The notes: generated from the sequence alone by a model not told the origin. Shown: positions 3,994 through 48,416, counted from the stretch's first letter. The stretch is 54,585 bases of DNA from Thermaerobacter sp. (GCA_036562425.1 DATCKH010000156.1:1-54585), one strand, 5' to 3'. A program made the numbers and translations.

Positions 3994-6021
<2,028 letters not shown>

Positions 6022-8808: not shown

Positions 8809-10404
8809 TCAGTCGATCCGCTCGTAGGCGGGCAGCGTCAGGAACTCGATGAACTCCTGGCTGAGGGCCACCTGCTCGAACAGTTCCCGCGCCTCCTGGA
8901 AGCGGCCGTTGCGGAAGAACTCGTCGCCAGTAGCGGCTCGGATCTTCTCCATCTCCTCGTCGGCGACGCGCCGCACCAGGTCGGCGGTCACCCGGGGGCC
9001 CTCCTTGAGGCTGGCGCCGTGGCGCACCCACTGCCAGACCTGGGCCCGGGCGATCTCCGCCGTCGCGGCGTCCTCCATCAGGTTGAAGATGGCCGCCGCG
9101 CCGTTGCCCCGCAGCCATGACGCCAGGTACTGGATACCCACGCTGACGTTGTTGCGCAGCCCGGCCTCGGTGATCTCGCCCCCGGGCACCCGCACGTCCA
9201 GCAGGTCCCGCGCGGCGACCTGCACGTCCTCCCGCAGGCGCTGGATCTGGTTGGGCCGGTCGCCCAGCACGCCATCGAAGACCTCCATGGCCACCGGCAC
9301 CAGGTCCGGGTGGGCCACCCAGGTGCCGTCGAAGCCGTCATTGGCCTCGCGGACCTTGTCCTCCCGCACCTTGGCCAGGGCCACCTCGTTGACCTTCGGG
9401 TCCTTGCGGCTGGGGATGAACGCGGCCATGCCGCCGATGGCGTGGGCCCCCCGCCGGTGGCAGGTCTTCACCAGCAGCTCGGTGTAGGCCCGCATGAAGG
9501 GCACCGTCATGGTCACCTGGGCGCGGTCCGGCAGCAGGAAGGCCGGGTCGTGCCGGAACTTCTTGATGACGCTGAAGATATAGTCCCAGCGCCCGGCGTT
9601 GAGGCCGGCGGAGTGGTCCCGCAGCTCGTACAGGATTTCCTCCATCTCGAAGGCGGCCAGGATCGTTTCGATCAGCACGGTGGCCTTGATGGTCCCGCGG
9701 GGGATGCCCAGCTCGTCCTGGGCGAAGTTGAAGACGTCGTTCCAGAGCCGTGCCTCCAGGTGGCTCTCCAGCTTGGGCAGGTAGAAGTAGGGGCCGGATC
9801 CCTTCTCGATCAGGCGCCGGGCATTGTGGAAGAAGTACAGGCCGAAGTCAAAGAGGCTGGCGGACATGGGCTTGCCGTCCACCAGCACGTGCTTTTCCTC
9901 CAGGTGCCAGCCGCGCGGCCGCACCACCAGGGTCGCCACCTTTTCCTTCAGCTTGTAATGCCGGCCGTCGGGGCTGGTGTACTCGATGGTCCCATTGACT
10001 GCGTCCACCAGGTTGATCTGCCCCTGGATGCAGTTGTCCCAGGTAGGCGTGTTGGCGTCCTCGAAGTCGGCCATGAAGACCCTGGCGCCCGAGTTGAGGG
10101 CGTTGATCATCATCTTCCGGTCCACCGGCCCGGTGATCTCCACCCGGCGGTCCTGAAGGTCCTTGGGCACCGGCGCGACGCGCCAGTCACCCTCCCGCAC
10201 GTGCCGGGTGGCGTCCAGGAAATCAGGCCTAGCGCCGGCGTCCAGTTCCGCCTGCCGCTCCGCCCGGCGGCGCAGCAGCGCCTCGCGCGTGGGGTTGAAC
10301 TCCCTCTGCAGGCGCGCGATGAAGGCGAGGGCTTCGGGTGTGAGGATTTCGTCGTAGCGTTCCTTCATCGGCCCGCGGATCTCGATGCCGTCCAGTGCGG
10401 CCAT
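8809..10404 (-). CDS. aceB: malate synthase A
   Basis: About 531 aa with full-length family match (..[13 protein letters not shown].., ..[11 protein letters not shown]..). The start is ambiguous among GTG 10422, ATG 10410 and ATG 10404. ATG 10404 has the best spacing to GGAGGGAGG. Confidence 0.95.
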
Positions 10405-10590
10405 GCCCATACCTCCCTCCACTCTGCCTCGACCCTCGCTTTGTCAACGCCGTTCGCCGTCACGGAGGAGATCCCTGCCAGCCCGCAGCCGGTACAACCG
10501 CCCCTTCGCGGGGCCCGGCCGCCCAATCTGGCCCTGCCCGTACACCGAGTACACTCGCACCGGCATACACAGATGCGGGAGGTGAAAACG

Positions 10591-11247
10591 GTGACGAGCC
10601 AGCATCACGACCACCACGACCCCTGCAAGGACCACGATCATCACGATCCTTGCAAGGACCACGACCATCACGACCGTCACGACCACGATCACCGCAAGAA
10701 GAAGCGCAAGGACCACGACCATCCCGACTTCCAGGTGCCGTCGTGCCCGCAGGGGTTCCTGTACACCGTCCAGCCCGGCGACACGATGTTCCTGATCGCC
10801 CAGCGGTTCGGGGTCAGCCTGCAGGCGCTGATCAACGCCAACCCGCAGATCCCGAACCCCAATCTGATCTTCCCGGGGCAGGTGCTCTGCGTGCCCACGG
10901 GCGTGGGCGCGCCGGCGCCAAGGTGCCAGGTCGGGTTCCTCTACACGGTCCAGCCTGGGGACACCATGTTCCTGATCGCTCAACGGTTCGGGGTCAGCCT
11001 GAACTCGCTCATCGCCTTCAACCCGCAGGTCCCGAATCCCAACCTGATCTTCCCGGGCCAGGTTCTCTGCGTGCCCACGGGCTGCCCCAACGGCCAACCC
11101 TACATCGTCCAGCCCGGGGACACGATGTTCCTGATCGCCCAGCGGTTCGGGATCAGCCTGCAGGCCCTGATCAACGCCAACCCGCAGGTCCCCAATCCGA
11201 ACCTGATCTTCCCGGGCCAGCAGCTCTGCATTCCTGTCAGCCCGTAA
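10591..11247 (+). CDS. His/Asp-rich N-terminus plus three LysM domains; no signal peptide
   Basis: GGGAGGTG lies 6 nt upstream of GTG 10591; an in-frame ATG at 10573 is an alternative start. The N-terminus reads HHDHHDPCKDHDHHDPCKDHDHHDRHDHDHRKKKRKDHDH. Three LysM units follow (YTVQPGDTMFLIAQRFGVSL..LI..NP...NPNLIFPGQ.LC.P), each bracketed by Cys. Confidence 0.85.
   Translation: MTSQHHDHHDPCKDHDHHDPCKDHDHHDRHDHDHRKKKRKDHDHPDFQVPSCPQGFLYTVQPGDTMFLIAQRFGVSLQALINANPQIPNPNLIFPGQVLCVPTGVGAPAPRCQVGFLYTVQPGDTMFLIAQRFGVSLNSLIAFNPQVPNPNLIFPGQVLCVPTGCPNGQPYIVQPGDTMFLIAQRFGISLQALINANPQVPNPNLIFPGQQLCIPVSP
10744..11244 (+). repeat. three near-identical 165-180-bp intragenic repeats, one LysM module each
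   Basis: Direct comparison of the three DNA units shows roughly 85-90% identity by eye. Confidence 0.9.
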
Positions 11248-11279
11248 GGATCAGGTGCTCCCTACGCCACCCATCGCAA

Positions 11280-11318
11280 CAGCTGCCGGGGGCGGTTCCT
11301 TGCCGCCCCCGGCAGCTG
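11280..11318. terminator. 16-bp perfect hairpin between convergent genes; probable bidirectional terminator
   Basis: CAGCTGCCGGGGGCGG ttccttg CCGCCCCCGGCAGCTG. U-tracts are weak on both strands. Confidence 0.55.
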
Positions 11319-11385
11319 CTGGCGGCTCCGGCGGCCTCCGGGCTGGCCGCCGGGGGCCACGCCCGGCGGCTAGCCCGGGCCGGGG

Positions 11386-12870
11386 CTACCTGCCAAACTG
11401 GGCCATGGCCGCCTGGTAGACGAAGAAGGCGTAGAACAGCGACATCGCTACCAGGACGAGGCGGGAAAGCCAGCCGGACCGCAGTTCCGGCGGCAGCACC
11501 CTGCTGTTGAGCCACGCCACCCCTACGCCACCGAGCACGAAGGCCACGCCCGCCATGTTGGCAACCAGCAGCACCAGGCCGAGAGGCGTGCCCCTGACGA
11601 AGAGGAACGCCAGCCAGAGCGTGATGAGGGTCAGGATGAAGTAATAAATCGTGCGAATGTCGTTGCGGGCGAGCCGCCGGGTGCCCGGGCCGAAGCTCCA
11701 CAGCAGGTCGGTCAGGTGCCGTACGACGGCGTCGGTGGCGGCGAGCTGCGTACCCCACAGGACCCAGAAACCGATGAGCAGGACCCAGACCCAGCCGAAG
11801 GCTCCCAGCTGCGCGGCCACCGCCTGGGCCTGAATGGCCGCCACGTCGTACTGGCCTTTGAGCTCCGTGCCCGGCGCGATGAGCCCCACGGCCAGGAGCA
11901 CGCAGAGGTACATACCCACCAGGCAGCCCGTGCAGTAGAGGGCCCACTGCTCCCAGCGCGCGTACCTGAGCCACTCGCGGAAACGCCGCAGGCTCTCCGC
12001 GGTGATGTCGAAGATCTTGCCGGTCTCCGATACCTCCACCTTGCGGCCGCCGATCAAGGCCGGGATGTAACCCACCTGGCCGCCCATGCCCCAGCCGCGA
12101 TCTCGTATCCAGTTGGAGGCGGCCATGTTGAGGACGCCGCCGGTAGCGGCGTAGGCGGCGAAGCCGCTGACCAGCACCCAGTTGACGCTCCCGCCCGCGC
12201 CCGCCTGGGGAAGGAAGCCGAAACTGAAGAAGCCGGCCGCCACCTTCCACCACCACTCCGGGGGCACCAGCCACAGGTCGAAGATGACCAGGCTGATAAA
12301 GATGATGGCGACGGCGAAGGTGGACACCCGGGCCAGCGTCCGCTCGACCCGGCTGCCGAAGGCGACCACCGCCATGACCAGGATCATGGCCACGATGCCC
12401 AGCATGAGCACCAGCTGTCTGTCAGCAGGTACGGCATCGTTGGGCATCCGCTGCAGTCCGAGGGCCGCCAGTGCCGTGGCCGATGCAGCCGCCCAGCCGG
12501 GGGACACCGACAGGATGCAGATCAGGAACCACACAGGCCCCCAGAACCACCGGCCGGGCCACAAGCGGAGGAGCCCCGGCAGGATGGGCTCACCGGTGGC
12601 CAGCGTGTAACGCTGGCACTCCAGGTTGAACACGGTCTGCATCACGGTGGCCACGGTAACGATCCAGAGCAGGGCCGGGCCGTACTGGATCACGGCCCGC
12701 GGCCCCAGCAACCACTCGCCGCTGCCGATGGACAGGCTCAGCAGAATGGAACTGACGCCGATCATGCGGAGGAAGTTCTGGAAGCCAAAGGGCGGTGGTG
12801 CCGGCAGCTCACCCACTTCCATGGCCGGCCCCAGGCCCATGGGGACGGTCCGGACCTCTGTCTTCCCCAT
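11386..12870 (-). CDS. polytopic membrane transporter, Nramp / APC-superfamily-like
   Basis: ATG 12870 has GGGAGGGG 7 nt upstream; 494 aa with about 11-12 TM helices. The family call is from general resemblance only; the canonical Nramp DPGN motif was not seen. Confidence 0.75.
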   Translation of the reverse strand: MGKTEVRTVPMGLGPAMEVGELPAPPPFGFQNFLRMIGVSSILLSLSIGSGEWLLGPRAVIQYGPALLWIVTVATVMQTVFNLECQRYTLATGEPILPGLLRLWPGRWFWGPVWFLICILSVSPGWAAASATALAALGLQRMPNDAVPADRQLVLMLGIVAMILVMAVVAFGSRVERTLARVSTFAVAIIFISLVIFDLWLVPPEWWWKVAAGFFSFGFLPQAGAGGSVNWVLVSGFAAYAATGGVLNMAASNWIRDRGWGMGGQVGYIPALIGGRKVEVSETGKIFDITAESLRRFREWLRYARWEQWALYCTGCLVGMYLCVLLAVGLIAPGTELKGQYDVAAIQAQAVAAQLGAFGWVWVLLIGFWVLWGTQLAATDAVVRHLTDLLWSFGPGTRRLARNDIRTIYYFILTLITLWLAFLFVRGTPLGLVLLVANMAGVAFVLGGVGVAWLNSRVLPPELRSGWLSRLVLVAMSLFYAFFVYQAAMAQFGR

Positions 12871-13181
12871 CACACACCCCTCCCGCTGGTGACGAGGTCT
12901 GCCCGCCGCCACATCCGGCGGGATTAGAAGCCGGGCGGAACTCGCACCGCACAGGGGTCACGGCTGGATGCATCCCCCTCGCGCCAGCCGTCATCCCCTC
13001 CTGTCCATCCTGCACCCTGCCCGGGGCACGGGCTTCGCCCCGGGGCTACGGCTGCCCGGCGGGCACGCCAACCACCAGCTCCAGCTGCTTGCATCGCCCC
13101 CTTCCTGCCGGAACCCGGCCCGCCCTTCTCCCACGCCGGCCGGTCATCCGCCACGCCGCGGTGCACCTGCGGTCCCTGCCC

Positions 13182-13238
13182 GGCCGTAACGAGGAGCAGG
13201 ACATTCTCGAGCAGGGGTACCCACCCCCCGTTACGGCC
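13182..13238. repeat. inverted repeat GGCCGTAACG ... CGTTACGGCC (10-bp stem, 37-nt loop)
   Basis: Read directly. It encloses the only AT-richer stretch (GACATTCTCGAG) of the 514-bp intergenic region. Confidence 0.8.
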
Positions 13239-13384
13239 CGGCAGGAGGCCCCTCCCCCCCGCACCACCCGACCCGCAGGCCGTTCCGCAGGCCGCCAGGT
13301 AGCGGTGCGGCCCGCTCCGGGTTGGGCGACGGTCCGGCCGGCGCCTGCCGGGTGACGGACGGGTCCCACCCCCTACCAGGCCTC

Positions 13385-14797
13385 TCAACCAGCCGCACCG
13401 GTGCCATCCACAACCGGATCGATCACCTTGCCGGGATTGAGGATGCCGTTGGGATCCAGGGCACGCTTGATGGCCCGCATCAGCGCCAGCGCCGGGCCGT
13501 GCTCGGTGGCCAGGTATTTCTTCTTGCCCAGTCCCACCCCGTGCTCCCCCGTACACGTGCCGCCCCGGGCGAGGGCGTACTCTACGATGGCGGCGTTGAC
13601 CCGCTCCGCCCGGGCGACGTCCTCGGGATCCTGGGGATCCACCATGAAGGCGGCGTGGTAGTTGCCGTCCCCCACGTGGCCCAGGATGGCGGCGTGGACG
13701 CCGTGTTCCTCCGCCATCTGCCGGGCATGGCGAATGGCATCGGGCAGCTGGGAGAGAGGTACGCACACGTCGGTGACCATCATCTTCTTGCCGGGCGCCG
13801 TGGCGGCGATGGCGAGGGCCGCGTGGTGCCGGGCCTCCCAGAGCTTCTCCCGGGCCTGGGGGTCGCTCTCGAACTCGAAGGCGAGGCACTCCTCCAGGGC
13901 GGCCAGCTCGCGGGCGAACTCCACATCGGCCCGGACGCCGGCCTCGGTACCGCTGAACTCGAGAAAGAGCGTGGGGCGCTCCGGGTACCCCGTCCCCTTG
14001 TAGGCGTTGACGGCCCGGATCGTGGCCTCGTCCACCAATTCCACGCGGGCCACCGGGACGCCGGCGCGGATCAGCCCCACGGCCACCCGGGCCGCCGCCT
14101 CGACCGTCGGGAAGGACGCGCGAGCGGCCACCACGTGTTCGGGCAGCGGGTACACCCGGAGCGTCGCCTCGGTGACGACACCGAGGGTTCCCTCGGAGCC
14201 GATGAACAGGCCGGTCAGGTTGTAGCCGGCCGAGGACTTCACCGCCCGGCTGCCGGTGCGGATGACGCTGCCGTCAGCCAGCACCACTTCCAGCCCCAGC
14301 ACCTGGTGCTTCATGGCCCCGTACCGCACGGCGTTGGTGCCGCTGGCGTTGGTGGCCACCATCCCGCCGATGGTGGCGTCGGCACCCGGATCCACGGGGA
14401 AGAACAGGCCCTCCCGCGCCAGCCGCAGGTTCAACCGCGACCGGGTCACCCCCGCCTGCACACGGACGAGGAAATCATCCGGCCGGACCTCGACGATCTC
14501 GTCCATACGGGTGAGGTCCAGGCTGATGCCGCCGCGCACGGGCACCACGTGCCCTTCCAGGCTGCTGCCCACGCCGAAGGGAACCACGGGGATGCGCCGC
14601 TCATTGGCGAACCGCAGGACGGCACTGACCTCCTCCGTGCTCTCGGGGAACACCACCGCCTCGGGGAGCCGGGGGGTGTGGTAGCTCAAGTCATGACTAT
14701 GGTTTTCCAGGACGGCGGCGCTGGTGCTGACCTTGCGGTCGTCCCCCAGCAGCCGCCGCAGCTCGCCGATCCAGGTGGACGTCGCAGGCTGGCCCAA
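13385..14797 (-). CDS. FAD-linked oxidase (GlcD / D-lactate dehydrogenase family paralogue)
   Basis: TTG start has GGAGGTGA 6 nt upstream; 470 aa. It has an FAD_binding_4 N-terminal domain (..PVVPFGVGSSLEGH..) and an FAD-oxidase C-terminal domain (..GEHGVGLGKKKYL..). Confidence 0.9.
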   Translation of the reverse strand: MGQPATSTWIGELRRLLGDDRKVSTSAAVLENHSHDLSYHTPRLPEAVVFPESTEEVSAVLRFANERRIPVVPFGVGSSLEGHVVPVRGGISLDLTRMDEIVEVRPDDFLVRVQAGVTRSRLNLRLAREGLFFPVDPGADATIGGMVATNASGTNAVRYGAMKHQVLGLEVVLADGSVIRTGSRAVKSSAGYNLTGLFIGSEGTLGVVTEATLRVYPLPEHVVAARASFPTVEAAARVAVGLIRAGVPVARVELVDEATIRAVNAYKGTGYPERPTLFLEFSGTEAGVRADVEFARELAALEECLAFEFESDPQAREKLWEARHHAALAIAATAPGKKMMVTDVCVPLSQLPDAIRHARQMAEEHGVHAAILGHVGDGNYHAAFMVDPQDPEDVARAERVNAAIVEYALARGGTCTGEHGVGLGKKKYLATEHGPALALMRAIKRALDPNGILNPGKVIDPVVDGTGAAG

Positions 14798-14926
14798 CCC
14801 GTTTCACCTCCGGAGCGCCGGCCTCCGCGGCAGGCCCGCGGCGGGCCGGCCGCCCTTGCGTTGACCTGTGCCTGGGAGTCGCCGTCTGGCCCCCGGATCC
14901 CGGCCGCGGTGACCGGGGCCCCGCGC

Positions 14927-16216
14927 TCAACCCGCCGCCCGTTCCGCCCCCGCCGCGTAGGCCTCCGCCAGGAGCTCCATGGTGTGCATGACCCGCACCG
15001 GGGCTCCGCGCCGCCGCAGCCCGGCCGCGATCTGGACCAGGCAGCCGATGTTGCCGGTGACGACGATGGCGGCACCGCTGCGCAGGATGCTGTCCACCTT
15101 CCTCTCCTGCAGCTGCCGGGCCACCTCGGGTTGCTCGATGTTGTACGTCCCCGCCGATCCGCAGCAGATGTCCGGTTCGTCCAGTTCGACCAGCTCCAGG
15201 TTGGGGATGGCACCCAGCAGGCGCCGCGGCGCCTCGCGCACTCCCTGGGCGTGCGCCAGGTGGCAGGCGTCATGGTAGGCCACCCGCACCGGCTCAGCCA
15301 GGGGACCGGGGGGCAGGGGCCCCAGCTCGGCCAGAAACTCGCTGGCGTCCCGTACGCGGGCGGCCAGGGCGCGGGCCCGCTCCTCATCGGGCGAGCCGGC
15401 GAAGAGGTGATGATACTCCTTCATGGCGGAACCGCAACCGGCGGCGTTGACCACGATGGCGTCCACGTCCAGGGAGGCCAGGGAGTCGAGGGTACGGGCG
15501 GCCTGCTCCCTGGCCTGCTGGCTGGCTCCCGCGTGCAGCGCCAGCGCCCCGCAACATCCCTGGCCCGGAGGCACCAGCACCTCGACGCCGTTGGCGGCCA
15601 GCACCCGGGCGGTGGCGTGGTTGATCTCGGGCGCCAGCACCTGCTGCACGCAACCGGTGACCAGGGCCACGCGGGCACGCCGCGGGCCTTCGGCGGGGAT
15701 CCGCGCCGGCAGCGGGCGGGCCGCCGGCAGGCGCTCCGGAACCAGTTCCAGCATGGCCCGGAGCTGCGCCGGCACCCAGCGGGGCAGCGGCAGCCGGCGG
15801 GCGACGGCCCCCAGCCGCGCGGCCAGGCGGAACCGCCGCGGGTAGGGCAGGGTTGCCAGCAGGACCGCCCGCACCCAGCGAGCCACGGTCGAACGCGGTG
15901 CCTCCCGTTCCCGCATGGTCCGAAAGGGGGTTAGCAGCTCGCCGTAGCGTACTCCCGCGGGACAGGCGGTGACACACGCCAGGCAGCCCAGACAGCGGTC
16001 CAGGTGCTCCGTGACGGCGCCCGCCAGCGGCAGCTCACCTTCCAGCACCTGCTTCATCAAGTAGATGCGGCCGCGGGGCGAATCCATCTCCTCGCCCAGG
16101 ACAAGATACGTAGGGCAAGTACTGAGACAGAACCCGCAGTGGACGCAGGCCTCGACCGCGGCGGCCATCCCCGGCCCCGCCGGCCCCAGTTGCTCGACAG
16201 GAATGCGGTGTTGCAT
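14927..16216 (-). CDS. glcF: glycolate oxidase iron-sulfur subunit
   Basis: ATG 16216 has GAGAGGGGAG upstream. Two 4Fe-4S motifs are present (CVHCGFCLSTCP, CLGCLACVTACP), plus C-terminal CCG domains. Confidence 0.9.
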   Translation of the reverse strand: MQHRIPVEQLGPAGPGMAAAVEACVHCGFCLSTCPTYLVLGEEMDSPRGRIYLMKQVLEGELPLAGAVTEHLDRCLGCLACVTACPAGVRYGELLTPFRTMREREAPRSTVARWVRAVLLATLPYPRRFRLAARLGAVARRLPLPRWVPAQLRAMLELVPERLPAARPLPARIPAEGPRRARVALVTGCVQQVLAPEINHATARVLAANGVEVLVPPGQGCCGALALHAGASQQAREQAARTLDSLASLDVDAIVVNAAGCGSAMKEYHHLFAGSPDEERARALAARVRDASEFLAELGPLPPGPLAEPVRVAYHDACHLAHAQGVREAPRRLLGAIPNLELVELDEPDICCGSAGTYNIEQPEVARQLQERKVDSILRSGAAIVVTGNIGCLVQIAAGLRRRGAPVRVMHTMELLAEAYAAGAERAAG

Positions 16217-16383
16217 CGGCTCCCCTCTCACCTGCCTCGCGATACACGACGGCATGCCTCGCCCGAGCGCACGCATCCCGCCGGTGTTTCATCCCTCGGG
16301 CGCGTGCCCGGCGCCACCGCAAGTCGTGATGTCGCCCCGCCGCGCCGGAGGAGCCCGGCCAGGTCCCGGATGACGCCCGGGGG

Positions 16384-17544
16384 CTAGGCGGGCACCTTCC
16401 AGCCAAAGGGCGGGAACCGGCCTGCGGGGTCCAGTAGCCCTTTCACCGCCCGGGCCACCTTGACGCCGGCCGGAGGCACCAGGTGGGTCACCCCGGGCGG
16501 GCCGCCCCGCCAGCACAGGGCGGTGATCCCCGCCCCCGCCAGCGCGGCCGTCAGGGCGTCCCAGTCCGGTTCGGTGGGGAACAGGGCCCAGGCGGCGCTG
16601 CCGGCCTGGCTGAAGACGCGCAAGGCTCCGTGGTGCGCCAGCAACTCATCGAGGGTCTCGATGGCGGTGGGACGGGCGTACAGGCGCAACAGCGCGCCAC
16701 CGCCGGCCGCCCACTCCAGTTCCCGGAAGCGGCGCCAGACGGCGGCTTCCTCCTCCGAACCCGCCGCCAGGCGGTCTCCAGGCCGGCCCACGCTCTCCTC
16801 GACGCGGTCGAGCCAGGAGGCCATCGTCGCGGCCGGCCCGCCGATCCGGACGAACAGGGTGTACCCGGGACCCTCCACGCCGGGCCCGGCCAGTTCCAGG
16901 GCGTGGGGCTCCAGCGGCGAGCGGAACAGCGCCCGCATCGCGGCCGCCGCCTCCTGCACGCGGTCGAAGGTGAAGCGGATGGTGGCGAAGGCCTGGGGCC
17001 GCGGGAAGACCTTGAAGGTCAGCTCCGTGATCACGCCGAAGCGGCCCTGGCTGCCGCAGAACAACTTGGGCAGGTCATAGCCGGCCGCGTTCTTCACCAC
17101 CCGGCCCCCGCCCCGGGCGATGCGCCCGGTGCCGTCCACGAAGGTCAGGCCCAGCACGAAATCCCGCACGCCGCCGAAGCGGAGGCGGCAGGCGCCGGAA
17201 ACCCCGGTGGCCACCGTGCCCCCTAGGGTCGCCCCCGCCTCCACCAGCAGCGGGTCGAAGGGCAGGTACTGGTCATGCTCCGCCAGGAGGCGTTCCAGGT
17301 CGGCCAGTCGCGTACCAGCCCGGGCGGTCACGGTGAACTCCGCGGGGTCGTAGTCCACGATCCCGGCGAGGCCGGTGATGTCCAGCACCACCACGTCCCC
17401 GTCTCCGGACAGGCCCGCCGTTCCCCACTTGGTGCCCCCGCCCCGGGCGATGAGCCGCGGGAACTGCTGAATCGCCTGCCGGACGTCCTCCGTAGACGAG
17501 GGACGCACCAGCCGCTGGTTCATCCCTTCGGTCATACCTGCCAT
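16384..17544 (-). CDS. glcE: glycolate oxidase FAD-binding subunit
   Basis: ATG 17544 has GGGAGG upstream; 386 aa. It has an FAD_binding_4 pattern (..ARGGGTKWG.., ..NAAGYDLPKLF..) and sits between glcD and glcF. Confidence 0.85.
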   Translation of the reverse strand: MAGMTEGMNQRLVRPSSTEDVRQAIQQFPRLIARGGGTKWGTAGLSGDGDVVVLDITGLAGIVDYDPAEFTVTARAGTRLADLERLLAEHDQYLPFDPLLVEAGATLGGTVATGVSGACRLRFGGVRDFVLGLTFVDGTGRIARGGGRVVKNAAGYDLPKLFCGSQGRFGVITELTFKVFPRPQAFATIRFTFDRVQEAAAAMRALFRSPLEPHALELAGPGVEGPGYTLFVRIGGPAATMASWLDRVEESVGRPGDRLAAGSEEEAAVWRRFRELEWAAGGGALLRLYARPTAIETLDELLAHHGALRVFSQAGSAAWALFPTEPDWDALTAALAGAGITALCWRGGPPGVTHLVPPAGVKVARAVKGLLDPAGRFPPFGWKVPA

Positions 17545-17695
17545 GGCCGCCTCCCACCCGCTTCTCGCGCGGCTCTCGCCTGGCGAGCCCGACCTCAACG
17601 AGCCGTCGTCGTGCCGCCGTCTCACCATGGTGCTACCGTAGCGCCACGGCCCCCGGGCCAGGGGCATCCGGCGCCGCCAGCCCGGCCCGGAGCGG

Positions 17696-19177
17696 TCAGT
17701 CGGGAAACATCTTGCCCCGGTTGGCCAGCTCCCGCGGGTCGAAGGCCCGCCGCAACTCACGCATCACGTTCAGGCTGTCGGGATCGAACATCTGCGCCAG
17801 GAACCGCCGCTTCTCCAGGCCCACCCCGTGCTCGCCCGTGATGGACCCACCCAGCTCGATGCACATCTCGATGATGGCTTCCGCCAGCCTCTCGGCCCGG
17901 TCCACGGTGTCCGGCGCCCTGTCATCGAAGAGGATGAGGGGATGCAGGTTGCCGTCGCCGGCGTGGAACACGTTGGCCACCCGGAAGCCATGCTCTGCCG
18001 CCAGCCGCTCGATCCGAGCGAGGGCCTCGCCCAGGCGGGTACGGGGCACCACGCCGTCCTGCACCAGGTAGCCCAGGCTGATATGCCCGACGGCGGAAAA
18101 GGCGCTCTTGCGGCCCTTCCAGAGCCGCATGCGCTCGGCGTCGTCCCGCGCCAGCCGGACCTCCAGCGGCCCCGAGGACTCCACCACGGCCAACAGGCGC
18201 TGGAAGTCGGCCTCGACCTCGTCCCGTGGCCCGTCCAGCTCGGCGATGAGCACCGCCCCGGCATCGCGGCGATATCCCGCGCCCACCGCTGCCTCCGCCG
18301 CCTCGATGGCCAGGCGGTCCATGATCTCGATGGCTGCCGGCAGGATCCCCGCGGCCACAATGGCTCCGACGGCCTCCCCCGCCCGTTCCAACCGGTCGTA
18401 GGCTGCCAGCAGGGTGCGGACCGCCTCCGGCCGCGGCAGCAGGCGCAGGGTCACCTCCACCACCACGCCGAACTGCCCCTCGGAACCGACGAACAGGCCC
18501 GGCAGGTCCGGCCCGGCGATGTCCAGGCTGTCGCCGCCCAGCTCCACCAGTTCCCCACCCGGCAGAACCACCTTCATCCCCAGCACGTGGTTGGCGGTCA
18601 TGCCGTACTTGAGGCAGTGGGCACCCCCGGAGTTGAAGGCCACGTTGCCGCCGATGGTGCAGATGACCTGGCTGGAGGGGTCGGGCGCGTAATAGAGGCC
18701 GTAGGGTGCCGCCGCCCGGCTCACGGCCGCGTTGATCACCCCGGGCTGGACCACCGCGAGCCGGTCATCGGGATCGATGGAGAGGATCCGGTTCATCCGG
18801 TTGAGGCCGATCACGATCCCGCCCGGCACGGGCACCGAGCCGCCGGACAGGCTGGTCCCGCTGCCGCGGGCGACAAAGGGCACGTCGTACTGGGCGCAAA
18901 GGCGGAGGGTAGCCACCACCTGTTCCGGCTCCCGCGGCAGGACCACCGCCAGCGGCCGGGCACGGAAGATGGTCAGGCCATCACACTCATAGGTGGAGAG
19001 CTGCGCGGGATCCGTGTGAATGGCATCCGGCGGGTAGACCTCCCGCAACTGCCGCAAGAACTCCTGGCGGGCCGGGGCCTCCGGGCCGCTCGCCCCCTGC
19101 GCATTCCCCCTGGCTGGCGGGTGCGCGGGCCCCGCCGGGCCCGGCCGGGTCACCTGCCGGGACGACACCACGTGCAC
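17696..19177 (-). CDS. glcD: glycolate oxidase subunit GlcD (FAD-linked oxidase)
   Basis: GTG start; 493 aa. Motifs include ..[14 protein letters not shown].. and ..[13 protein letters not shown].. It is the first gene of the glcDEF run. Confidence 0.9.
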
Positions 19178-19534
19178 GGCAACCCGCCCCTTTCCGTCAC
19201 TCGGACGGTGTATTTGAGAGGAGTCTATTCAACGCTTCCGACCCAGTTCCTGGTTTCTCGCAACAAGAACCGGGAGCGGCGAAAAGAGGGCGCGTAAGGA
19301 TCCAAACCCGGAATCGGACCCGGGCAGGGAAGCAGAAGGCGGCGATCTAACTTACGGTACTAGTTAGGAAGCGCGGGCAGTCGTGTAGCAAGATGCCGGA
19401 CGCGTGGAAGCGAGGCCGTGCCTCGCGGTAGCGGACTGGGCTGCCGCCCGGCCCCGGTGGGGCCGGGCACTGGCTTTTCCGGCTGTCCCGAGACCGGAGC
19501 GGCGGGGGGCCGGCACCGGACGGGAGGAGAAACC

Positions 19535-20260
19535 TTGGCCCGGGCGGTCTTACACCTGATCACCGATCGCGGCACCGCTCCCGACCTGGTGGGGGCCGTG
19601 ACGGCCGCCCTGGCGGGCGGGGTCGACTGGGTCCAGTTGCGGGACAAGTCGGCGGCGGCACGGGACCTCTTCGCTCTGGCCCGCCAGTTGCGGCCGCTCT
19701 GCCGGGAGCGGGGCGCCGGTCTCCTGGTCAACGACCGGGTGGACGTGGCCCTGGCCGCCGGCTGCGACGGCGTGCACCTGGCCAAGAAAAGCCTCCCCGT
19801 ACGGGAAGCCCGCCGGCTGCTCCAGCCAGGCCGGCTGGTGGGAGCGTCGGTCCACTCCATCGAGGAGGCCGTGGCCGCCGCCGGCGAGGGAGCCGATTAC
19901 GTCACCTTCGGCAGCGTCTTCCCCACCCGCTCCCACCCCGGCCGCCCGGCCGCCGGCGTCGAGGAGCTGGCCCGGGTGGTCCGGGCCGTAGAGATCCCGG
20001 TCCTGGCCATCGGTGGCATCACGCCGGAGAACGTGGCGGAGGTGCTGGCGACGGGGGTGGCGGGCGTCGCGGTCATCTCGTCCATCCTGGCCGAGGCCGA
20101 TCCGGCCCGGGCCGCGGCCCGTCTCCGGGAGACCATGGAGCGGGTTCCCCACCGCCCGCGCGTCCCCTTCCCGCCACCCCGGTCACCCTGGCCCGGCACT
20201 GCCGCCACCGTCCCCGCTGCGCGTACACCCGGCCCGGAACCCGGCGGCCCCGCTGGGTGA
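19535..20260 (+). CDS. thiE: thiamine-phosphate synthase
   Basis: TTG 19535 has GGGAGGAG 5 nt upstream. ThiE pattern: ..VQLRDK.., ..LLVNDRVDVALA..DGVHL.., ..GASVHS.., ..DYVTFG.VF.T.SH.., ..AIGGI.. It has a P-rich C-terminal tail. Confidence 0.9.
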   Translation: MARAVLHLITDRGTAPDLVGAVTAALAGGVDWVQLRDKSAAARDLFALARQLRPLCRERGAGLLVNDRVDVALAAGCDGVHLAKKSLPVREARRLLQPGRLVGASVHSIEEAVAAAGEGADYVTFGSVFPTRSHPGRPAAGVEELARVVRAVEIPVLAIGGITPENVAEVLATGVAGVAVISSILAEADPARAAARLRETMERVPHRPRVPFPPPRSPWPGTAATVPAARTPGPEPGGPAG

Positions 20261-20346
20261 TACCCGCCGGCGGAACGGCACCGGAAGCCAGGGCATGAGG
20301 CCCATCCGGTCGCTGCAGGACAGCACCAAGGGAGGGAGATCCGGCC

Positions 20347-21489
20347 ATGACAGCCCGGCCCCAGAACCGTGTTGTCCGCCTGACGGTCAACGGCAGGGAG
20401 GTGGTCCTGGAAACCCGCCCGGACGGTGGTCTCCCCACCGTGGCGGACCTGATCCGGCACCTCGGCCTGGCCGGTCAGCCCGCCGTGGCAGTCGCCGTGG
20501 ACCGGCAGGTGGTGCCCCGGGATCGGTGGGAGACCTGGCCCTTGCGGGACGCCGTCGAGGTGGAGGTGGTACGGCCCATGGCCGGTGGTGAGCATCGCGG
20601 GAGCGGGACCTCCGGGGACGGGACCCCCATGGACGGAGCGGACCCGGCCGGTGCCTACGACCCGGACCGGGACCCGCTGCTCATCGCGGGGCGCAAGTTC
20701 CGCTCGCGGCTCTTCCTGGGGACCGGCAAGTACCGGGATGCGGCCACCATGGTCGCCGCTCTGGAACGCTCGGCGACGGAGATGGTGACGGTGGCCATCC
20801 GGGCCATGAAGCTGGACGAACCGGGCGGCGGTGACATCCTCGTCCACCTGGACCGCCGCCGTTACCACCTGCTGCCCAACACGGCGGGCGCCACCACGGC
20901 CGACCAGGCCGTCCGCATCGCCCACCTGGCCCGGGAAGCCCTCGGCACCAACTGGATCAAGCTGGAGGTCATCGGCGACCAGCGGACGCTACTGCCCGAC
21001 CTGCAGGGCACGCTAGAAGCCACGCGCCAGCTGGTGCGGGATGGGTTCGTCGTCCTCCCCTACTGTACGTCGGATCTGGTCACCTGCCTGCGGCTAGAGG
21101 ACGCCGGCGCCGCCGCCGTCATGCCCCTGGCCGCCCCCATCGGCACGGGCCAGGGGATGATCGACTGGGCGGGCATCCAGCGGGTGATCGAGCGGGTGTC
21201 GGTGCCCGTGGTGGTGGATGCCGGCCTGGGGGTGCCTTCTGACGCCGCCATGGCGATGGAGCTGGGCGCCAGCGCCGTCCTGGTCAACACCGCCATCGCC
21301 CGGGCCCAGAACCCGCCCCTGATGGCGGAAGCCTTCAAGTGGGGAGTGCTGGCCGGGCGCCAGGCGTTCCTGGCCGGCCGGATGCCGCCCCAGAAAGAAG
21401 CCAGCCCCTCCAGCCCCACCGAGGGGGTACCCTTTAGCGGTAGCGGCGTGGCACGGGCCACCCGGCCGGCGGGAGGGACCCGGGCATGA
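20347..21489 (+). CDS. thiG: ThiS (sulfur carrier) - ThiG (thiazole synthase) in-frame fusion
   Basis: Single 380-codon ORF. Residues 1-81 are ThiS-like and end in VVRPMAGG. The next codon (20590-20592) is GAG, not a stop. A G/D/P linker leads into full ThiG (LIAGRKFRSRLFLGTGKY..NWIKLEVIG..VVVDAGLGVPSDAA..). Confidence 0.85.
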   Translation: MTARPQNRVVRLTVNGREVVLETRPDGGLPTVADLIRHLGLAGQPAVAVAVDRQVVPRDRWETWPLRDAVEVEVVRPMAGGEHRGSGTSGDGTPMDGADPAGAYDPDRDPLLIAGRKFRSRLFLGTGKYRDAATMVAALERSATEMVTVAIRAMKLDEPGGGDILVHLDRRRYHLLPNTAGATTADQAVRIAHLAREALGTNWIKLEVIGDQRTLLPDLQGTLEATRQLVRDGFVVLPYCTSDLVTCLRLEDAGAAAVMPLAAPIGTGQGMIDWAGIQRVIERVSVPVVVDAGLGVPSDAAMAMELGASAVLVNTAIARAQNPPLMAEAFKWGVLAGRQAFLAGRMPPQKEASPSSPTEGVPFSGSGVARATRPAGGTRA

Positions 21490-22832
21490 CGTTTCCTGGG
21501 AGTGCCGCGGGGGCGTCCAATTTCCGGGCGGGCGAAGCCCGCCCGCAGGCGGGCCAGGGGCAGCCGAGCCCGTCCGCCGGCCAGGGGCAGCCGGGCCCGT
21601 CCGCCGACCAGGGGCAGGCCAGCCCGTCCCCCGCTAGCCACGGCCCGGTCCCGGTTCCACCCCAGAGCAGCGCCTTTGACATAGCCGTCATCGGGGGCGG
21701 TATCATCGGCCTCGCCGTCGCCTTCCAGCTGGCCAGGGATGGCGCCCGGGTCGCCGTCCTGGAGCGGGAGCGCCCCGGAGCCGGCGCATCCACCGCCGCC
21801 GCCGGCATGCTGGCCCCGGGTCATGAAGCGGGCACGGACCCGGTGCTCTACGAGCTGGGCATCCGCAGTTGCCGGCTGTGGCCGGAGTTCGCCCGGGACA
21901 TCGAAGCTGCCGCGGGAACGCGTACGGGTTACGTCGCCCGCGGGATCGCGGTGGTAGCCACCGGCGAGGGAGAGGCCGCCGGCCTCCGCGAGCGGGCGGA
22001 GCGGGAAGGGGGCCAGCGGCGCCTGCGCTGGCTGCCGCCCCAGGCGCTTCCCCCGTACCTGACGGACTTTCAGGGCGTCCGGGGTGCTCTGGTCTTTGAG
22101 GAAGGAGGACATGTGGACCCCGTGGCCACCGTCGGGGCGCTGGCGGCCGCCTTCGCAGCCGTGGGCAGCCTCTGGACCGGGGCGGAGGTCACCGACATCC
22201 GGGACGAACCGGCCGGCAGCGGGCGGCGCCTGGTGGCCGTGCGCACGCCGTGGGGGGAGGTCCGGGCGGGCACCTTCGTCCTGGCAGGGGGCGTGGCCAA
22301 CGCCGCCCTCTCCGCCCGCCTGGGGGTCCCCCTGCCGGTGGTGCCCGTGAAGGGGCAGGTCCTGGCCGTGCAGCCGCCACCCGCCCTGCGGCCCTTCCTG
22401 GACGGCCAGGTCCCGGTGTTCGGCGCCGGCGTCTACCTGGTCCCGCGCCTGGACGGGAGGCTGCTGATCGGCGCCACCGAGGAACCGGAGGCGGGGTACG
22501 ATCGCTCGGTGACGCTGGGTGCCATCACGCGCCTGGCCGCCGCGGCCCAGCGGCTGGTGCCCGCCCTGGAGCGAGCCCGGTGGCTGGAGGCCAGGACAGG
22601 CCTGCGCCCGGGGAGCCCGGACCGGCGCCCGCTGCTGGGCCCCCTGCCGGGCTATCACAACGTGATCGCCGCGGCGGGGCATTACCGGAACGGCATCCTG
22701 CTCGCCCCGCTCACGGCCCGAATCGTGGCCGGCCTCTGCGCCGGCCGGGAACCCGAGATGGACCTGGCCCCGCTGGATCCAGGGCGTTTCGCGTCCACGC
22801 CCGGACCCGGGGCGGGTCGCTCGAGTGCCTGA
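21486..22832 (+). CDS. thiO: glycine oxidase ThiO (FAD) with a repeat-containing N-terminal extension
   Basis: The ATG overlaps the thiG stop (ATGA). The DAO-family dinucleotide motif FDIAVIGGGIIGLAVAFQLARDG begins about residue 60. No alternative start codon lies closer to it. Confidence 0.85.
   Translation: MTFPGSAAGASNFRAGEARPQAGQGQPSPSAGQGQPGPSADQGQASPSPASHGPVPVPPQSSAFDIAVIGGGIIGLAVAFQLARDGARVAVLERERPGAGASTAAAGMLAPGHEAGTDPVLYELGIRSCRLWPEFARDIEAAAGTRTGYVARGIAVVATGEGEAAGLRERAEREGGQRRLRWLPPQALPPYLTDFQGVRGALVFEEGGHVDPVATVGALAAAFAAVGSLWTGAEVTDIRDEPAGSGRRLVAVRTPWGEVRAGTFVLAGGVANAALSARLGVPLPVVPVKGQVLAVQPPPALRPFLDGQVPVFGAGVYLVPRLDGRLLIGATEEPEAGYDRSVTLGAITRLAAAAQRLVPALERARWLEARTGLRPGSPDRRPLLGPLPGYHNVIAAAGHYRNGILLAPLTARIVAGLCAGREPEMDLAPLDPGRFASTPGPGAGRSSA
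21552..21632 (+). repeat. 3 x 27-bp tandem repeat inside the thiO 5' end
   Basis: Units at 21552-21578, 21579-21605 and 21606-21632, with consensus GGCCAGGGGCAGCCGNGCCCGTCCGCC. They encode GQGQPSPSA / GQGQPGPSA / DQGQASPSP. Confidence 0.95.
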
Positions 22833-41907: not shown

Positions 41908-42018
41908 CCCGTCTCCCCTCCTCCGAACCCGGACCCTGCGTGCCCAGCAGAGCCGGTTCCACTCGATCCACCGTCGCCCGCCCCGCCGGCGGCCACGACC
42001 ACCGGCGGCCATGGCCGC

Positions 42019-43275: not shown

Positions 43276-43600
43276 GGGCACCCTCCTTTGAGCGGGGCAG
43301 GAACAGGGGGCGGCCGCCGCGCAGGATGGACCGCACCGCGAGATTGCGCGGGCGTCCCGGCTGGCGGGTGAACGCGGCGCACTTTGAGAAGGCGGCCCGT
43401 AAGCAGCCGACAGCTTGAGGGGTGGGCGGAGGGGAGAAGCTGGCAGGCGCAAGGCAGGCCCGGACGCCGGCCGCGGCATACGGACGCCCAGGCCGGGCGA
43501 AATCACCCGACCCCCGGCGCCGTAACCGCCGGCCCGGTTTCGTGCTCGCAGCGCCGCCCGGCAGCCACCCGGCATGGCCAACGGGGGTCGACGCCCCGCC

Positions 43601-43636
43601 GAAACAAAGCGCCCCGGCGTCCGTTCACCGGGGCAG
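43601..43636 (-). terminator. riboswitch-associated intrinsic terminator (expression platform)
   Basis: On the minus strand, GCCCCGG tgaacggacg CCGGGGC is followed by GCTTTGTTTC, about 110 nt downstream of the aptamer 3' end. The preceding CCTTTCCTCT could pair with the aptamer P1 3' strand. Confidence 0.55.
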
Positions 43637-43749
43637 AGGAAAGGCATGCCGGGCAGCCCACAGCCTGTCCAGCCCGCGCACGGGCGCACCCGTCGTCGCG
43701 GGCACGCCCGGCCCGCCGGGCGGCTGCTGCGGCCACGGTTCACGCCTTG

Positions 43750-44058
43750 CCTCCTTCTCCCATCCGGACTATACCGTCGGCGCCGGGATCTCACCGGACT
43801 CCTGCCCGCCGCCAGTCCGGGGTACTCCCCGGCATGGACCGCCCCGGACCACCCGTGCGCCGGCACGGGCGGGCCGGTCCACGGCGGCAGGCTCGCGGGC
43901 TCGTCGCGGGACCGCGCCGGCAGAACCATTCCGGCCGCTGCTCCGGCCCTCACGTGCCGGCACCGGAGCCGCCACCCGGTACGGCCAGGCCGTCGAGGTC
44001 CCGCGCATCACCGCCGGTCGGGAATTGGGCTGCCGCCCTCACCCTGCCCCGAAGGAGA
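43750..44058 (-). promoter_or_regulatory. FMN riboswitch (RFN element) of the rib operon, unusually long
   Basis: The minus strand reads TCTCCTTCGGGGCAGGGTGA..AATTCCCGACCGGCGGTGA..AGCCCGCGAGCC..GTCCGGTGAGATCCCGGCGCCGACGGTATAGTCCGGATGGGAGAAGGAG. All conserved RFN blocks are in order and P1 is CTCCTTC/GAAGGAG. Confidence 0.88.
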
Positions 44059-48220: not shown

Positions 48221-48416
48221 TGGACCCGCCTCCCTGCGTGGCCAGCGGCCGGGCCGGGGCCAGGCCGTGCTCGCCGCGCCGCGCCCTGGCCGCCAGGGCC
48301 TGGCTTCTCGCCCGCGCCGGCAGCTGCGGCCGGGCGGCCGCCCGCGGCCGTGGGCGGCCGCCGCCGGCGCCTCCCCGCCCCTGGGCCGGTTGTTCCAGCC
48401 CTGCTGCTGCCGCGGG

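What the first reader, a model, noticed from the sequence alone, without database searches (positions are those of the whole stretch)
20347..21489. ThiS sulfur carrier fused in frame to thiazole synthase ThiG, with no stop after the C-terminal Gly-Gly
Seen in the sequence:
- There is one uninterrupted 380-codon ORF.
- Residues 1-81 form a ThiS-type domain ending in the canonical ..VVRPMAGG (GGT GGT at 20584-20589).
- The next codon (20590-20592) is GAG rather than a stop.
- The frame continues through a ~35-residue G/D/P-rich linker into a complete ThiG, including the Schiff-base lysine context IKLEVIG.

Established chemistry: ThiS needs a free C-terminal glycine carboxylate for adenylation and thiocarboxylate formation.

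Possible explanations (inference):
- The fusion is proteolytically released, as with ubiquitin-like precursors.
- The fused ThiS is non-functional and ThiG is initiated separately at the internal ATG 20629.
- There is a sequencing or assembly error at the junction.

No thiF/moeB-type adenylyltransferase or JAMM protease is in the window. I cannot tell without a database search how common this architecture is.
Basis: partly seen in the sequence, partly recalled or inferred. Interest (0 to 1): 0.7.

Follow-up and report, generated by a model that had tools for sequence, protein, structure and literature searches.

The report
Known ThiS–ThiG fusion gene, real
The thiamine sulfur-carrier ThiS really is fused in frame to thiazole synthase ThiG here, but this is a widespread architecture described in 2006 and found in every sequenced Thermaerobacter; only how the carrier's Gly-Gly end is freed remains untested.

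Summary
Window 20347-21489 (+) is one 380-codon ORF. It holds a ThiS domain (residues 1-81, ending AGG), a 27-residue low-complexity linker, and a complete ThiG whose K205 aligns with the B. subtilis Schiff-base Lys96.

It is not a sequencing error. The same fused ORF occurs in T. marianensis, T. subterraneus, T. composti, strain FW80 and a Thermaerobacter MAG. Linker lengths differ by in-frame indels and the Gly codons differ synonymously.

In 97 fused homologues from several phyla the two glycines are invariant. Linkers run from 1 to 51 residues (median 5), and only 6 of 97 contain a Met. The thiE-thiSG-thiO gene order is conserved.

The fusion was reported by Iyer, Burroughs and Aravind in 2006, so it is already known.

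The best mechanism, by inference, is translation as one polypeptide from the strong-SD ATG 20347. Cleavage after Gly81 would then release ThiS-GG for adenylation and thiocarboxylation, as shown for the MoaD-MoaE fusions MoaX and DR2607. The protease and ThiF lie outside the window and could not be sought.

The record's own annotation, a 286-aa ThiG from ATG 20629, rests on a non-conserved internal start. Interest is low to moderate.

The parts
19535..20260 (+). thiE (thiamine-phosphate synthase), the first gene of the thiE-thiSG-thiO module. The ORF opens at GTG 19418; the probable start is TTG 19535, preceded by GGGAGGAG.
   Evidence: Pfam TMP-TENI at 216 bits. Sequence read. SD pairing -10.3 kcal/mol. 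The same neighbour lies upstream of the fused gene in L081-L087.
20330..20338 (+). Shine-Dalgarno sequence GGGAGGGAG, 8 nt upstream of the thiSG start codon.
   Evidence: Duplex energy with the anti-SD is -12.0 kcal/mol. Only 0.4% of 479 internal in-frame start-like codons in the window's genes pair as strongly.
20347..21489 (+). thiSG, a single 380-codon ORF including the stop codon.
20347..20589 (+). ThiS beta-grasp sulfur-carrier domain, residues 1-81.
   Evidence: PF02597 and TIGR01683 both score above their cutoffs. AF2 pLDDT is 93-97 over residues 11-70, with beta-grasp secondary structure. The domain aligns end to end with stand-alone ThiS proteins that finish in GG.
20584..20589 (+). 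Gly80-Gly81 codons (GGT GGT). This is the canonical ThiS C-terminus, internal here, and the predicted cleavage site lies after G81.
   Evidence: G80 and G81 are invariant in 97 of 97 fused homologues. The codons differ synonymously in L084, which has GGC GGC.
20590..20670 (+). Low-complexity linker EHRGSGTSGDGTPMDGADPAGAYDPDR, residues 82-108.
   Evidence: AF2 pLDDT is 55-59. Linker length ranges from 1 to 51 residues in homologues, always in frame. There is a 30-nt indel relative to L084.
20629..20631 (+). Internal ATG (Met95), used as the ThiG start in the NCBI annotation of this contig. Probably not a real start.
   Evidence: P0122 is 286 aa and sits on a 54585-bp contig. SD pairing is -7.5 kcal/mol, within the top 11% of the background. 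Met is absent at this place in P0001, P0121 and P0129.
20671..21432 (+). ThiG thiazole-synthase TIM-barrel domain, residues 109-362. The Schiff-base Lys205 codon is at 20959-20961.
   Evidence: PF05690 at 342.6 bits. Alignment to 1TYG, 2HTM and 1XM3. Foldseek TM-score 0.96-0.97, normalised to the target, against ThiG structures.
21486..22832 (+). thiO (FAD-dependent glycine oxidase type). Its start overlaps the thiSG stop (ATGA).
   Evidence: Pfam DAO at 239 bits. The ATGA overlap was read. The same neighbour is present in L082-L085 and L087.

Best explanation
This is an ordinary member of a long-established family of ThiS-ThiG fusion genes (thiSG), sitting in a thiE-thiSG-thiO thiazole module.

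Shown: the ORF is real, it is conserved as a fusion across the genus and across phyla, both domains are intact, and translation most plausibly starts at ATG 20347, which has by far the best ribosome-binding site.

Inferred: the 380-aa polypeptide is a precursor. An endopeptidase cuts after Gly81, inside a disordered linker. That releases ThiS with a free Gly-Gly carboxylate together with a ThiG carrying a short N-terminal extension. A ThiF/MoeB-type E1 encoded elsewhere then adenylates and thiocarboxylates the freed ThiS. ThiS-COSH docks on ThiG, whose Lys205 holds DXP as an imine, while ThiO supplies dehydroglycine; this is the B. subtilis-type pathway. On this reading the fusion serves 1:1 co-expression and perhaps co-folding of the two partners, not a new chemistry.
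For: A real, conserved fusion.
- Fused orthologues occur in T. marianensis (381 aa), T. subterraneus (396), strain FW80 (396), T. composti (398) and a Thermaerobacter MAG (368).
- About 100 of the 120 closest homologues carry both ThiS and ThiG Pfam domains.
- In an NJ tree of ThiG domains, the fused genes of Bacillota, Chloroflexota and Rubrobacter form one clade. An acidobacterial fusion (L070) nests separately among unfused relatives.
- The window and L084 differ by a 30-nt in-frame indel and by synonymous Gly codons.

The ThiS domain is still under carrier-type constraint.
- G80 and G81 are invariant in 97 of 97 sequences, although the ThiS domain is only 37% identical to the window at the median, against 69% for ThiG.
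- Residue 81 aligns with the C-terminus of 83 stand-alone ThiS proteins that end in GG.

The linker suits a protease.
- AF2 pLDDT falls to 55-59 in the linker while both domains exceed 90.
- The residue after GG is S, A or D in 78% of sequences. MoaX is cut at Gly82|Ser83 (PMC4326299).

Precedent.
- MoaX must be cleaved at its GG for activity.
- The Deinococcus MoaD-MoaE fusion DR2607 is cut by the JAMM protease DR0402 (PMC8832034).
- QbsE/QbsD and CxnE/CxnF trim extensions that follow GG (PMC5925218).
- Rubrobacter, which carries the fusion, is listed with a JAB + E1 + ThiS/MoaD operon (PMC1779556).

Start codon. SD pairing is -12.0 kcal/mol at ATG 20347 and -7.5 at ATG 20629.
Against: No cleavage has been demonstrated for any ThiS-ThiG fusion in the literature I could search.

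No JAMM protease or ThiF was found in the window or within 10 kb of any fused locus examined. I could not search whole Thermaerobacter genomes for them.

The residue after GG in the window is Glu, a minority choice (6 of 97).

NCBI annotators model ThiG alone from an internal start (P0122, P0003, P0128 and P0133).
Confidence: 0.6

Rival explanations
1. Two independent products. ThiG is translated on its own from the internal ATG 20629, as in the record's own annotation. The upstream ThiS-like part is vestigial, or is only made as a read-through fusion of no consequence.
For: NCBI annotates a 286-aa ThiG on this very contig, and 264-282-aa versions in T. marianensis and T. composti. A weak G-rich SD-like stretch precedes ATG 20629, at -7.5 kcal/mol.
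Against: The annotated internal starts are at different, non-homologous positions and use different codons (ATG here; V or L codons in the fused versions of T. marianensis and T. composti). Only 6 of 97 linkers contain a Met, and many linkers are 1-5 residues long, leaving no room for an RBS outside the ThiS coding sequence. The SD of ATG 20629 falls within the top 11% of random internal start-like codons, whereas ATG 20347 is in the top 0.4%. A vestigial ThiS would not keep an invariant GG or a ThiS score above the TIGR01683 cutoff.
Confidence: 0.12
2. The fusion stays uncleaved. The tethered ThiS domain acts as a structural or regulatory partner of ThiG, and sulfur is delivered by a different, stand-alone carrier (a second ThiS, a MoaD/CysO-like protein, or another donor) encoded elsewhere.
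For: Iyer et al. note that ThiF proteins with a fused Ub-like domain co-occur with a separate solo ThiS, so fused Ubl domains can have non-carrier roles. No protease is seen near any fused locus. The whole-chain AF2 pTM of 0.82 is compatible with a stably docked ThiS domain.
Against: No solo ThiS lies within 10 kb of any fused locus, or anywhere in the 54.6-kb window, whereas unfused relatives nearly always have thiS next to thiG. Absolute conservation of GG is hard to explain without a need for a free glycine carboxylate. MoaX, the closest tested analogue, is inactive unless cleaved.
Confidence: 0.15
3. Artefact: a sequencing or assembly error removed the thiS stop codon, for example a lost base in an ancestral GGT GGT TGA.
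For: A TGA lies one base out of frame at 20589-20591, overlapping GGT-GAG.
Against: The fusion is present in five independent Thermaerobacter sequences and in many other taxa, with different linker lengths that are all in frame. Codon-position GC stays coding-like through the linker.
Confidence: 0.01
4. Programmed -1 slippage after the second Gly codon reads the overlapping TGA (20589-20591) and terminates, giving ThiS-GG directly. Non-shifted ribosomes make the fusion.
For: The sequence GGT GGT GAG places TGA exactly one base back from the end of the G81 codon.
Against: Only 2 of 12 fused loci examined at the DNA level have this overlapping stop. The closest relative, L084, has GGC GGC GAG with no such stop. 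GGT GGT is not a recognisable slippery heptamer (my assessment).
Confidence: 0.02

Closest known systems
ThiS-ThiG fusion proteins described by Iyer, Burroughs and Aravind 2006 (Genome Biol 7:R60, PMC1779556), in many proteobacteria and Rubrobacter xylanophilus. RefSeq and UniProt entries for Thermaerobacter include WP_013496257.1 / E6SIE5.
   Same: Same domain order, with N-terminal ThiS ending in GG followed by C-terminal ThiG. The window protein is 60-64% identical to the Rubrobacter proteins P0029 and P0042. It is 78% identical overall to T. marianensis P0121, and 92% identical in the ThiG domain. thiE lies upstream in both.
   Different: Thermaerobacter linkers are unusually long (17-51 residues against a family median of 5) and rich in P, A, G and D. 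Nothing else differs.
MoaX of Mycobacterium tuberculosis, a fused MoaD-MoaE molybdopterin synthase (Narrandes et al. 2015, PMC4326299).
   Same: A ubiquitin-like sulfur carrier is fused through its GG to the enzyme that consumes its thiocarboxylate. Cleavage after the second Gly (G82|S83) was shown to be required for activity, and the protease is unidentified.
   Different: A different cofactor pathway and unrelated partner enzyme (MoaE rather than the ThiG TIM barrel). Cleavage has been demonstrated for MoaX but not for any ThiSG.
Deinococcus radiodurans DR2607 (MoaD-MoaE fusion) and its JAMM/MPN+ protease DR0402 (PMC8832034, and Yang et al. 2018 as cited there).
   Same: A linear Ubl-enzyme fusion is cut by a JAMM metalloprotease to expose the C-terminal Gly. 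This is a working model for how ThiSG could be processed.
   Different: No JAMM gene was found in the window or beside any thiSG locus. Specificity for ThiS is untested.
The B. subtilis ThiS/ThiG two-protein complex (PDB 1TYG) and the thiS-thiG gene pair.
   Same: ThiG is 48% identical, with TM-score 0.97 (normalised to the target), and the catalytic Lys is conserved. A ThiO-type glycine oxidase partner is present. In most relatives thiS sits directly upstream of thiG, a few bases away.
   Different: There, ThiS is a separate 66-aa protein with a free GG. Here the stop codon and intergenic spacer are replaced by a translated linker.
Sulfur carriers with C-terminal extensions that are trimmed by JAMM proteases: QbsE/QbsD (thioquinolobactin) and CxnE/CxnF (chuangxinmycin).
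   Same: The GG is not C-terminal in the primary product, and a dedicated metalloprotease exposes it before adenylation (PMC5925218). Nine of the 92 stand-alone ThiS relatives (100 aa or shorter) found here also carry 2-20 residues after GG.
   Different: Those extensions are short peptides, not a whole enzyme, and the protease gene is clustered with the carrier gene.

Membership tests
ThiS sulfur-carrier family (PF02597 / TIGR01683) | The sequence matches the family models above the curated cutoffs. | tested here: met
   PF02597 scores 41.4 bits against 22.5. TIGR01683 scores 47.9 bits against 37.45, covering model positions 2-64 of 64.
ThiS sulfur-carrier family (PF02597 / TIGR01683) | A Gly-Gly motif at the end of the beta-grasp domain. 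| tested here: met
   G80-G81 are invariant in 97 of 97 fused homologues. They align with the terminal GG of 83 stand-alone ThiS proteins.
ThiS sulfur-carrier family (PF02597 / TIGR01683) | A free C-terminal glycine carboxylate available for adenylation and thiocarboxylation. | tested here: not met
   In the primary translation product, G81 is followed by 299 more residues. Whether it becomes free after processing cannot be tested with these tools.
ThiS sulfur-carrier family (PF02597 / TIGR01683) | A cognate ThiF/MoeB-type adenylyltransferase in the genome. | not testable with these tools
   None is present in the 54.6-kb window. Only 2 of 84 related loci have a ThiF within 10 kb, so its absence nearby is normal.
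ThiG thiazole synthase (PF05690) | A full-length match to the family model and a (beta/alpha)8 barrel fold. | tested here: met
   PF05690 scores 342.6 bits over model positions 2-247 of 247. In the AF2 model most 10-residue blocks of the barrel have pLDDT above 90, and Foldseek TM-scores normalised to the target are 0.96-0.97 against 5Z9Y and 1TYG.
ThiG thiazole synthase (PF05690) | The Schiff-base lysine (B. subtilis Lys96) and neighbouring acidic residues. | tested here: met
   K205 aligns with residue 96 of 1TYG chain A. K205, E207 and D291 are invariant in A2. The role of Lys96 is taken from established knowledge of B. subtilis ThiG.
ThiS-ThiG fusion architecture (Iyer et al. 2006) | A single ORF with ThiS at the N-terminus and ThiG at the C-terminus, conserved in orthologues. 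| tested here: met
   Literature.
GG-cleaved Ubl-enzyme precursor (MoaX / DR2607 type) | The Ubl carrier is fused through its GG to the enzyme that uses its thiocarboxylate. | tested here: met
   Comparison with MoaX.
GG-cleaved Ubl-enzyme precursor (MoaX / DR2607 type) | Demonstrated post-translational cleavage after the second Gly. | not testable with these tools
   This needs protein-level experiments. No report was found for any ThiSG.
GG-cleaved Ubl-enzyme precursor (MoaX / DR2607 type) | A JAMM/MPN+ or other GG-specific protease encoded in the genome. | tested here: inconclusive
   None was found in the window or in the flanks of fused loci. The JAMM seed came from memory and had no positive control, and whole genomes were not searchable.

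The most novel reading that the evidence does not exclude
The conserved ThiS-ThiG polypeptide is never cut. The tethered ThiS domain would then act as a permanent subunit, either through a chemistry that needs no free carboxylate or with sulfur delivered by another carrier. In that case the invariant GG would serve a different purpose, such as a flexible hinge into the ThiG active site. A milder version is that cleavage does occur but is carried out by a non-JAMM protease or by autoproteolysis specific to this family.
Probability: 0.1. Interest if true: 0.6.

Novelty: already known. Interest (0 to 1): 0.22.

Why it matters
It matters in three small ways.

First, it settles that the junction is real and not an assembly error.

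Second, it exposes inconsistent public annotation. The same gene is recorded as a 381-aa "sulfur carrier protein ThiS", as a 282-aa "thiazole synthase", and on this contig as a 286-aa ThiG with the ThiS part left unannotated. Pathway-reconstruction tools could therefore call thiS missing in these genomes.

Third, it points to a gap in the open-access literature I could search. Despite the many fused sequences, I found no report showing how a ThiS fused to ThiG gets the free Gly-Gly it needs. The MoaX and DR2607 precedents make this directly testable.

It does not reveal a new kind of system.

Tried and rejected
- ThiS-domain-only search in the word-indexed protein database. It returned nothing, not even the 78%-identical P0001, so it was uninformative. 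The exhaustive representative search replaced it.
- The look-up of encoding contigs for the window protein and for P0003. Neither was on record.
- The single genome-contig scan. Many "full-length" tblastn matches turned out to be adjacent but separate thiS and thiG genes. Only L001-L005 and L070 are true fusions.
- T. marianensis "ThiG-only" P0003. I first took this as a hint of an unfused orthologue. The cluster look-up showed the same gene is also recorded as a 381-aa fusion, so that reading was rejected.
- -1 frameshift termination at the overlapping TGA. Rejected because it is not conserved: 2 of 12 loci.
- TPP riboswitch upstream of thiE. None was found at the Rfam gathering threshold or at E <= 1.
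- Long ThiG-containing ORFs in L029, L041, L049 and L073. These are ORF-extension artefacts with no extra domain.
- Literature searches for an experimental study of ThiSG. Several were swamped by "this", "thigh" and "jammed" matches. The clean searches found only Iyer et al. 2006.
- Search for ThiF and JAMM in Thermaerobacter genomes.

Full report
**1. The observation.**
Window 20347-21489 (+) is one uninterrupted ORF of 380 codons. Residues 1-81 score as ThiS: Pfam PF02597 gives 41.4 bits (cutoff 22.5) and TIGR01683 gives 47.9 bits (cutoff 37.45), with the match ending at residue 81. Residues 113-357 are a full-length ThiG (PF05690, 342.6 bits).

The Gly-Gly codons are GGT GGT at 20584-20589. 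The next codon is GAG, and an internal ATG (Met95) lies at 20629. K205, in WIKLEVIGD, aligns without gaps to Lys96 of B. subtilis ThiG in 1TYG. By established knowledge that is the residue forming the imine with DXP.

An exhaustive HMMER search of the 81-residue domain against 1.84 billion representative proteins gave 96 hits. Of these, 92 are 100 aa or shorter, and 83 of those 92 end in GG, aligned to query residue 81. The domain therefore stops exactly where free-standing ThiS stops.

Codon-position GC is coding-like in this frame through ThiS, the linker and ThiG, with GC3 of 0.85, 0.89 and 0.91. The linker is 27 residues to the conserved Asp109, rather than about 35.

**2. Surroundings.**
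The gene sits in a thiE (19418/19535-20260) - thiSG - thiO (21486-22832, ATGA overlap) module. A PAP2-GDPD gene follows it, and glycolate-oxidase-like genes on the other strand precede it.

- No TPP riboswitch was detected.
- Pfam scans of about 40 ORFs across the window found no ThiF/MoeB or JAB/JAMM domain.
- A ThiS HMM found no second ThiS in six-frame translations of the window.
- An E. coli ThiF sequence written from memory found nothing in the window. It did find ThiF-like ORFs in two other loci, so that search had a positive control.
- The JAMM search was negative but had no positive control.

**3. Not an error, and not rare.**
About 100 of the 120 closest database homologues carry both Pfam domains. 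A cluster look-up showed fused orthologues in T. marianensis DSM 12885 (381 aa, WP_013496257.1 / E6SIE5), T. subterraneus (396 aa), Thermaerobacter sp. FW80 (396 aa), T. composti (398 aa) and a Thermaerobacter MAG (368 aa).

At the DNA level the window and the MAG contig L084 differ by a 30-nt in-frame indel in the linker, and by synonymous Gly codons (GGT GGT against GGC GGC).

In an alignment of 97 fused proteins:
- G80 and G81 are invariant.
- The ThiS domain is only 37% identical to the window at the median, against 69% for ThiG.
- The linker from GG to Asp109 ranges from 1 to 51 residues, with a median of 5.
- The residue after GG is S (42), A (18) or D (16) in 78% of sequences.
- Only 6 linkers contain a Met.

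thiE-thiSG(-thiO) synteny holds in Rubrobacter, in Clostridia/Limnochordia-like MAGs and in others.

Among 80 species-representative loci, only L001-L005 and L070 are true fusions. Most of the rest have a separate thiS a few bases upstream of thiG. A neighbour-joining tree of ThiG domains puts the fusions of Bacillota, Chloroflexota and Rubrobacter in one clade. It places the acidobacterial fusion L070 among unfused relatives. The fusion has therefore arisen at least twice and has been stably inherited.

**4. Already described.**
[quoted passage not shown] They also state that ThiS is fused to ThiG in many proteobacteria and in Rubrobacter xylanophilus (PMC1779556).

From memory, and not tested here, NCBI CDD also carries a "bifunctional sulfur carrier protein/thiazole synthase" model (PRK11840). 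No solved structure of a fused protein exists; PDB ThiG chains are 252-268 aa.

**5. How it probably works.**

*Shown.* ATG 20347 has a GGGAGGGAG Shine-Dalgarno sequence with -12.0 kcal/mol pairing. Only 0.4% of 479 internal start-like codons in the window's genes pair as strongly. ATG 20629 has -7.5 kcal/mol, which falls within the top 11%.

The internal starts that NCBI uses for the truncated "thiazole synthase" models are at non-homologous positions in different species. In the fused versions those positions are V or L codons. They look like annotation choices rather than a conserved start site.

AlphaFold2 with the 97-sequence alignment gives mean pLDDT 89.4 and pTM 0.82. Both domains are confident, while the linker (residues 81-100) has pLDDT 55-59, so it is probably disordered and accessible. 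The ThiG part superposes on ThiG crystal structures with TM-scores of 0.96-0.97, normalised to the target.

*Inferred.* ThiS chemistry requires a free glycine carboxylate, and the GG is invariant while the rest of the domain drifts. The simplest reading is that the polypeptide is a precursor cut after Gly81. ThiF then adenylates and thiocarboxylates the released ThiS, and ThiG uses it together with ThiO-derived dehydroglycine.

Direct precedents exist for the sister system:
- M. tuberculosis MoaX must be cleaved at Gly82|Ser83 to be active, by an unidentified protease (PMC4326299).
- The Deinococcus MoaD-MoaE fusion DR2607 is cut by the JAMM protease DR0402 (PMC8832034).
- QbsD and CxnF trim post-GG extensions from their carriers (PMC5925218).

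Nine of the 92 stand-alone ThiS relatives (100 aa or shorter) found here also carry 2-20 residues after GG. GG-exposing processing therefore seems to be a wider need. I put about 0.6 on the cleavage model.

**6. Rivals.**
- Internal initiation with a vestigial ThiS (0.12). It conflicts with GG invariance, with Met-free and very short linkers, and with the weak, non-conserved start context.
- An uncleaved fusion with sulfur supplied by another carrier (0.15). This cannot be excluded without whole genomes. However, no solo ThiS lies near any fused locus, and MoaX argues against it.
- Sequencing error (0.01). Refuted by the comparative data.
- -1 slippage onto the overlapping TGA at 20589-20591 (0.02). 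That stop is present in only 2 of 12 fused loci and is absent from the closest relative.

**7. Verdict.**
It is an ordinary member of a published and well-populated architecture, so its novelty is "already known".

Two things give residual interest. First, the processing step has no experimental support for ThiSG in the literature I could search. Second, public annotation of these genes, including this contig's own record, is inconsistent. Interest is about 0.2.

Noticed in passing
window 39901-42012 (-): One 703-codon ORF joins riboflavin synthase RibE (two Lum_binding domains; the N-terminal motif [11 protein letters not shown] begins near residue 35) to RibBA (DHBP_synthase + GTP_cyclohydro2). 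There is no stop between them, only a G/P/A-rich linker of about 85 residues. This is a second stop-less in-frame fusion of operon neighbours in the same window.
   Followed up: partly
window 3994-6018 (-): A 674-aa ORF combines a Cys/Met-metabolism PLP enzyme (O-acetylhomoserine sulfhydrylase type, residues 59-474) with a C-terminal CoA_binding_2 domain (residues 548-660).
   Followed up: no
window 20629-21489 (+); proteins P0122, P0003, P0128, P0133: Public annotation is inconsistent. The NCBI record of this 54585-bp contig carries only a 286-aa ThiG from the internal ATG. RefSeq holds both fused entries (381-398 aa, named "sulfur carrier protein ThiS") and truncated entries (264-282 aa, named "thiazole synthase") for the same Thermaerobacter genes. 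NCBIfam has a thiS model hit but no ThiG model hit, which probably drives the odd naming.
   Followed up: yes
window 18900-20400: No TPP riboswitch lies upstream of the thiE-thiSG-thiO module, either at the Rfam gathering score or at E <= 1. The roughly 350-nt region between the divergent FAD-oxidase gene and thiE is unexplained.
   Followed up: partly
proteins P0143, P0147, P0152, P0166, P0169, P0215, P0218, P0219, P0224: These stand-alone ThiS-like proteins carry 2-20 extra residues after the GG motif, for example ...GGGSV...AAGGCA and ...GGGKE. They would also need C-terminal trimming before activation.
   Followed up: no
L070 9959-11014 (+): An acidobacterial ThiS-ThiG fusion (ThiS 21-84, ThiG 100-344) has a ThiG domain that nests among unfused acidobacterial ThiGs. 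This indicates an independent second origin of the fusion.
   Followed up: partly
window 8809-19228 (-): A cluster holds malate synthase, two or three GlcD-like FAD-linked oxidases and a CCG/4Fe-4S GlcF-like protein, consistent with glycolate oxidation feeding malate synthase. It also includes a 508-aa ORF (11389-12912) with no Pfam match.
   Followed up: no
window 42019-43953, 47573-48607, 48417-49862 (-): The ribD, purN and purM ORFs as listed have 130-255-residue N-terminal extensions with no domain, and they overlap their neighbours. These are probably stop-poor ORF-extension artefacts of a 72-77% GC genome rather than real extensions.
   Followed up: no
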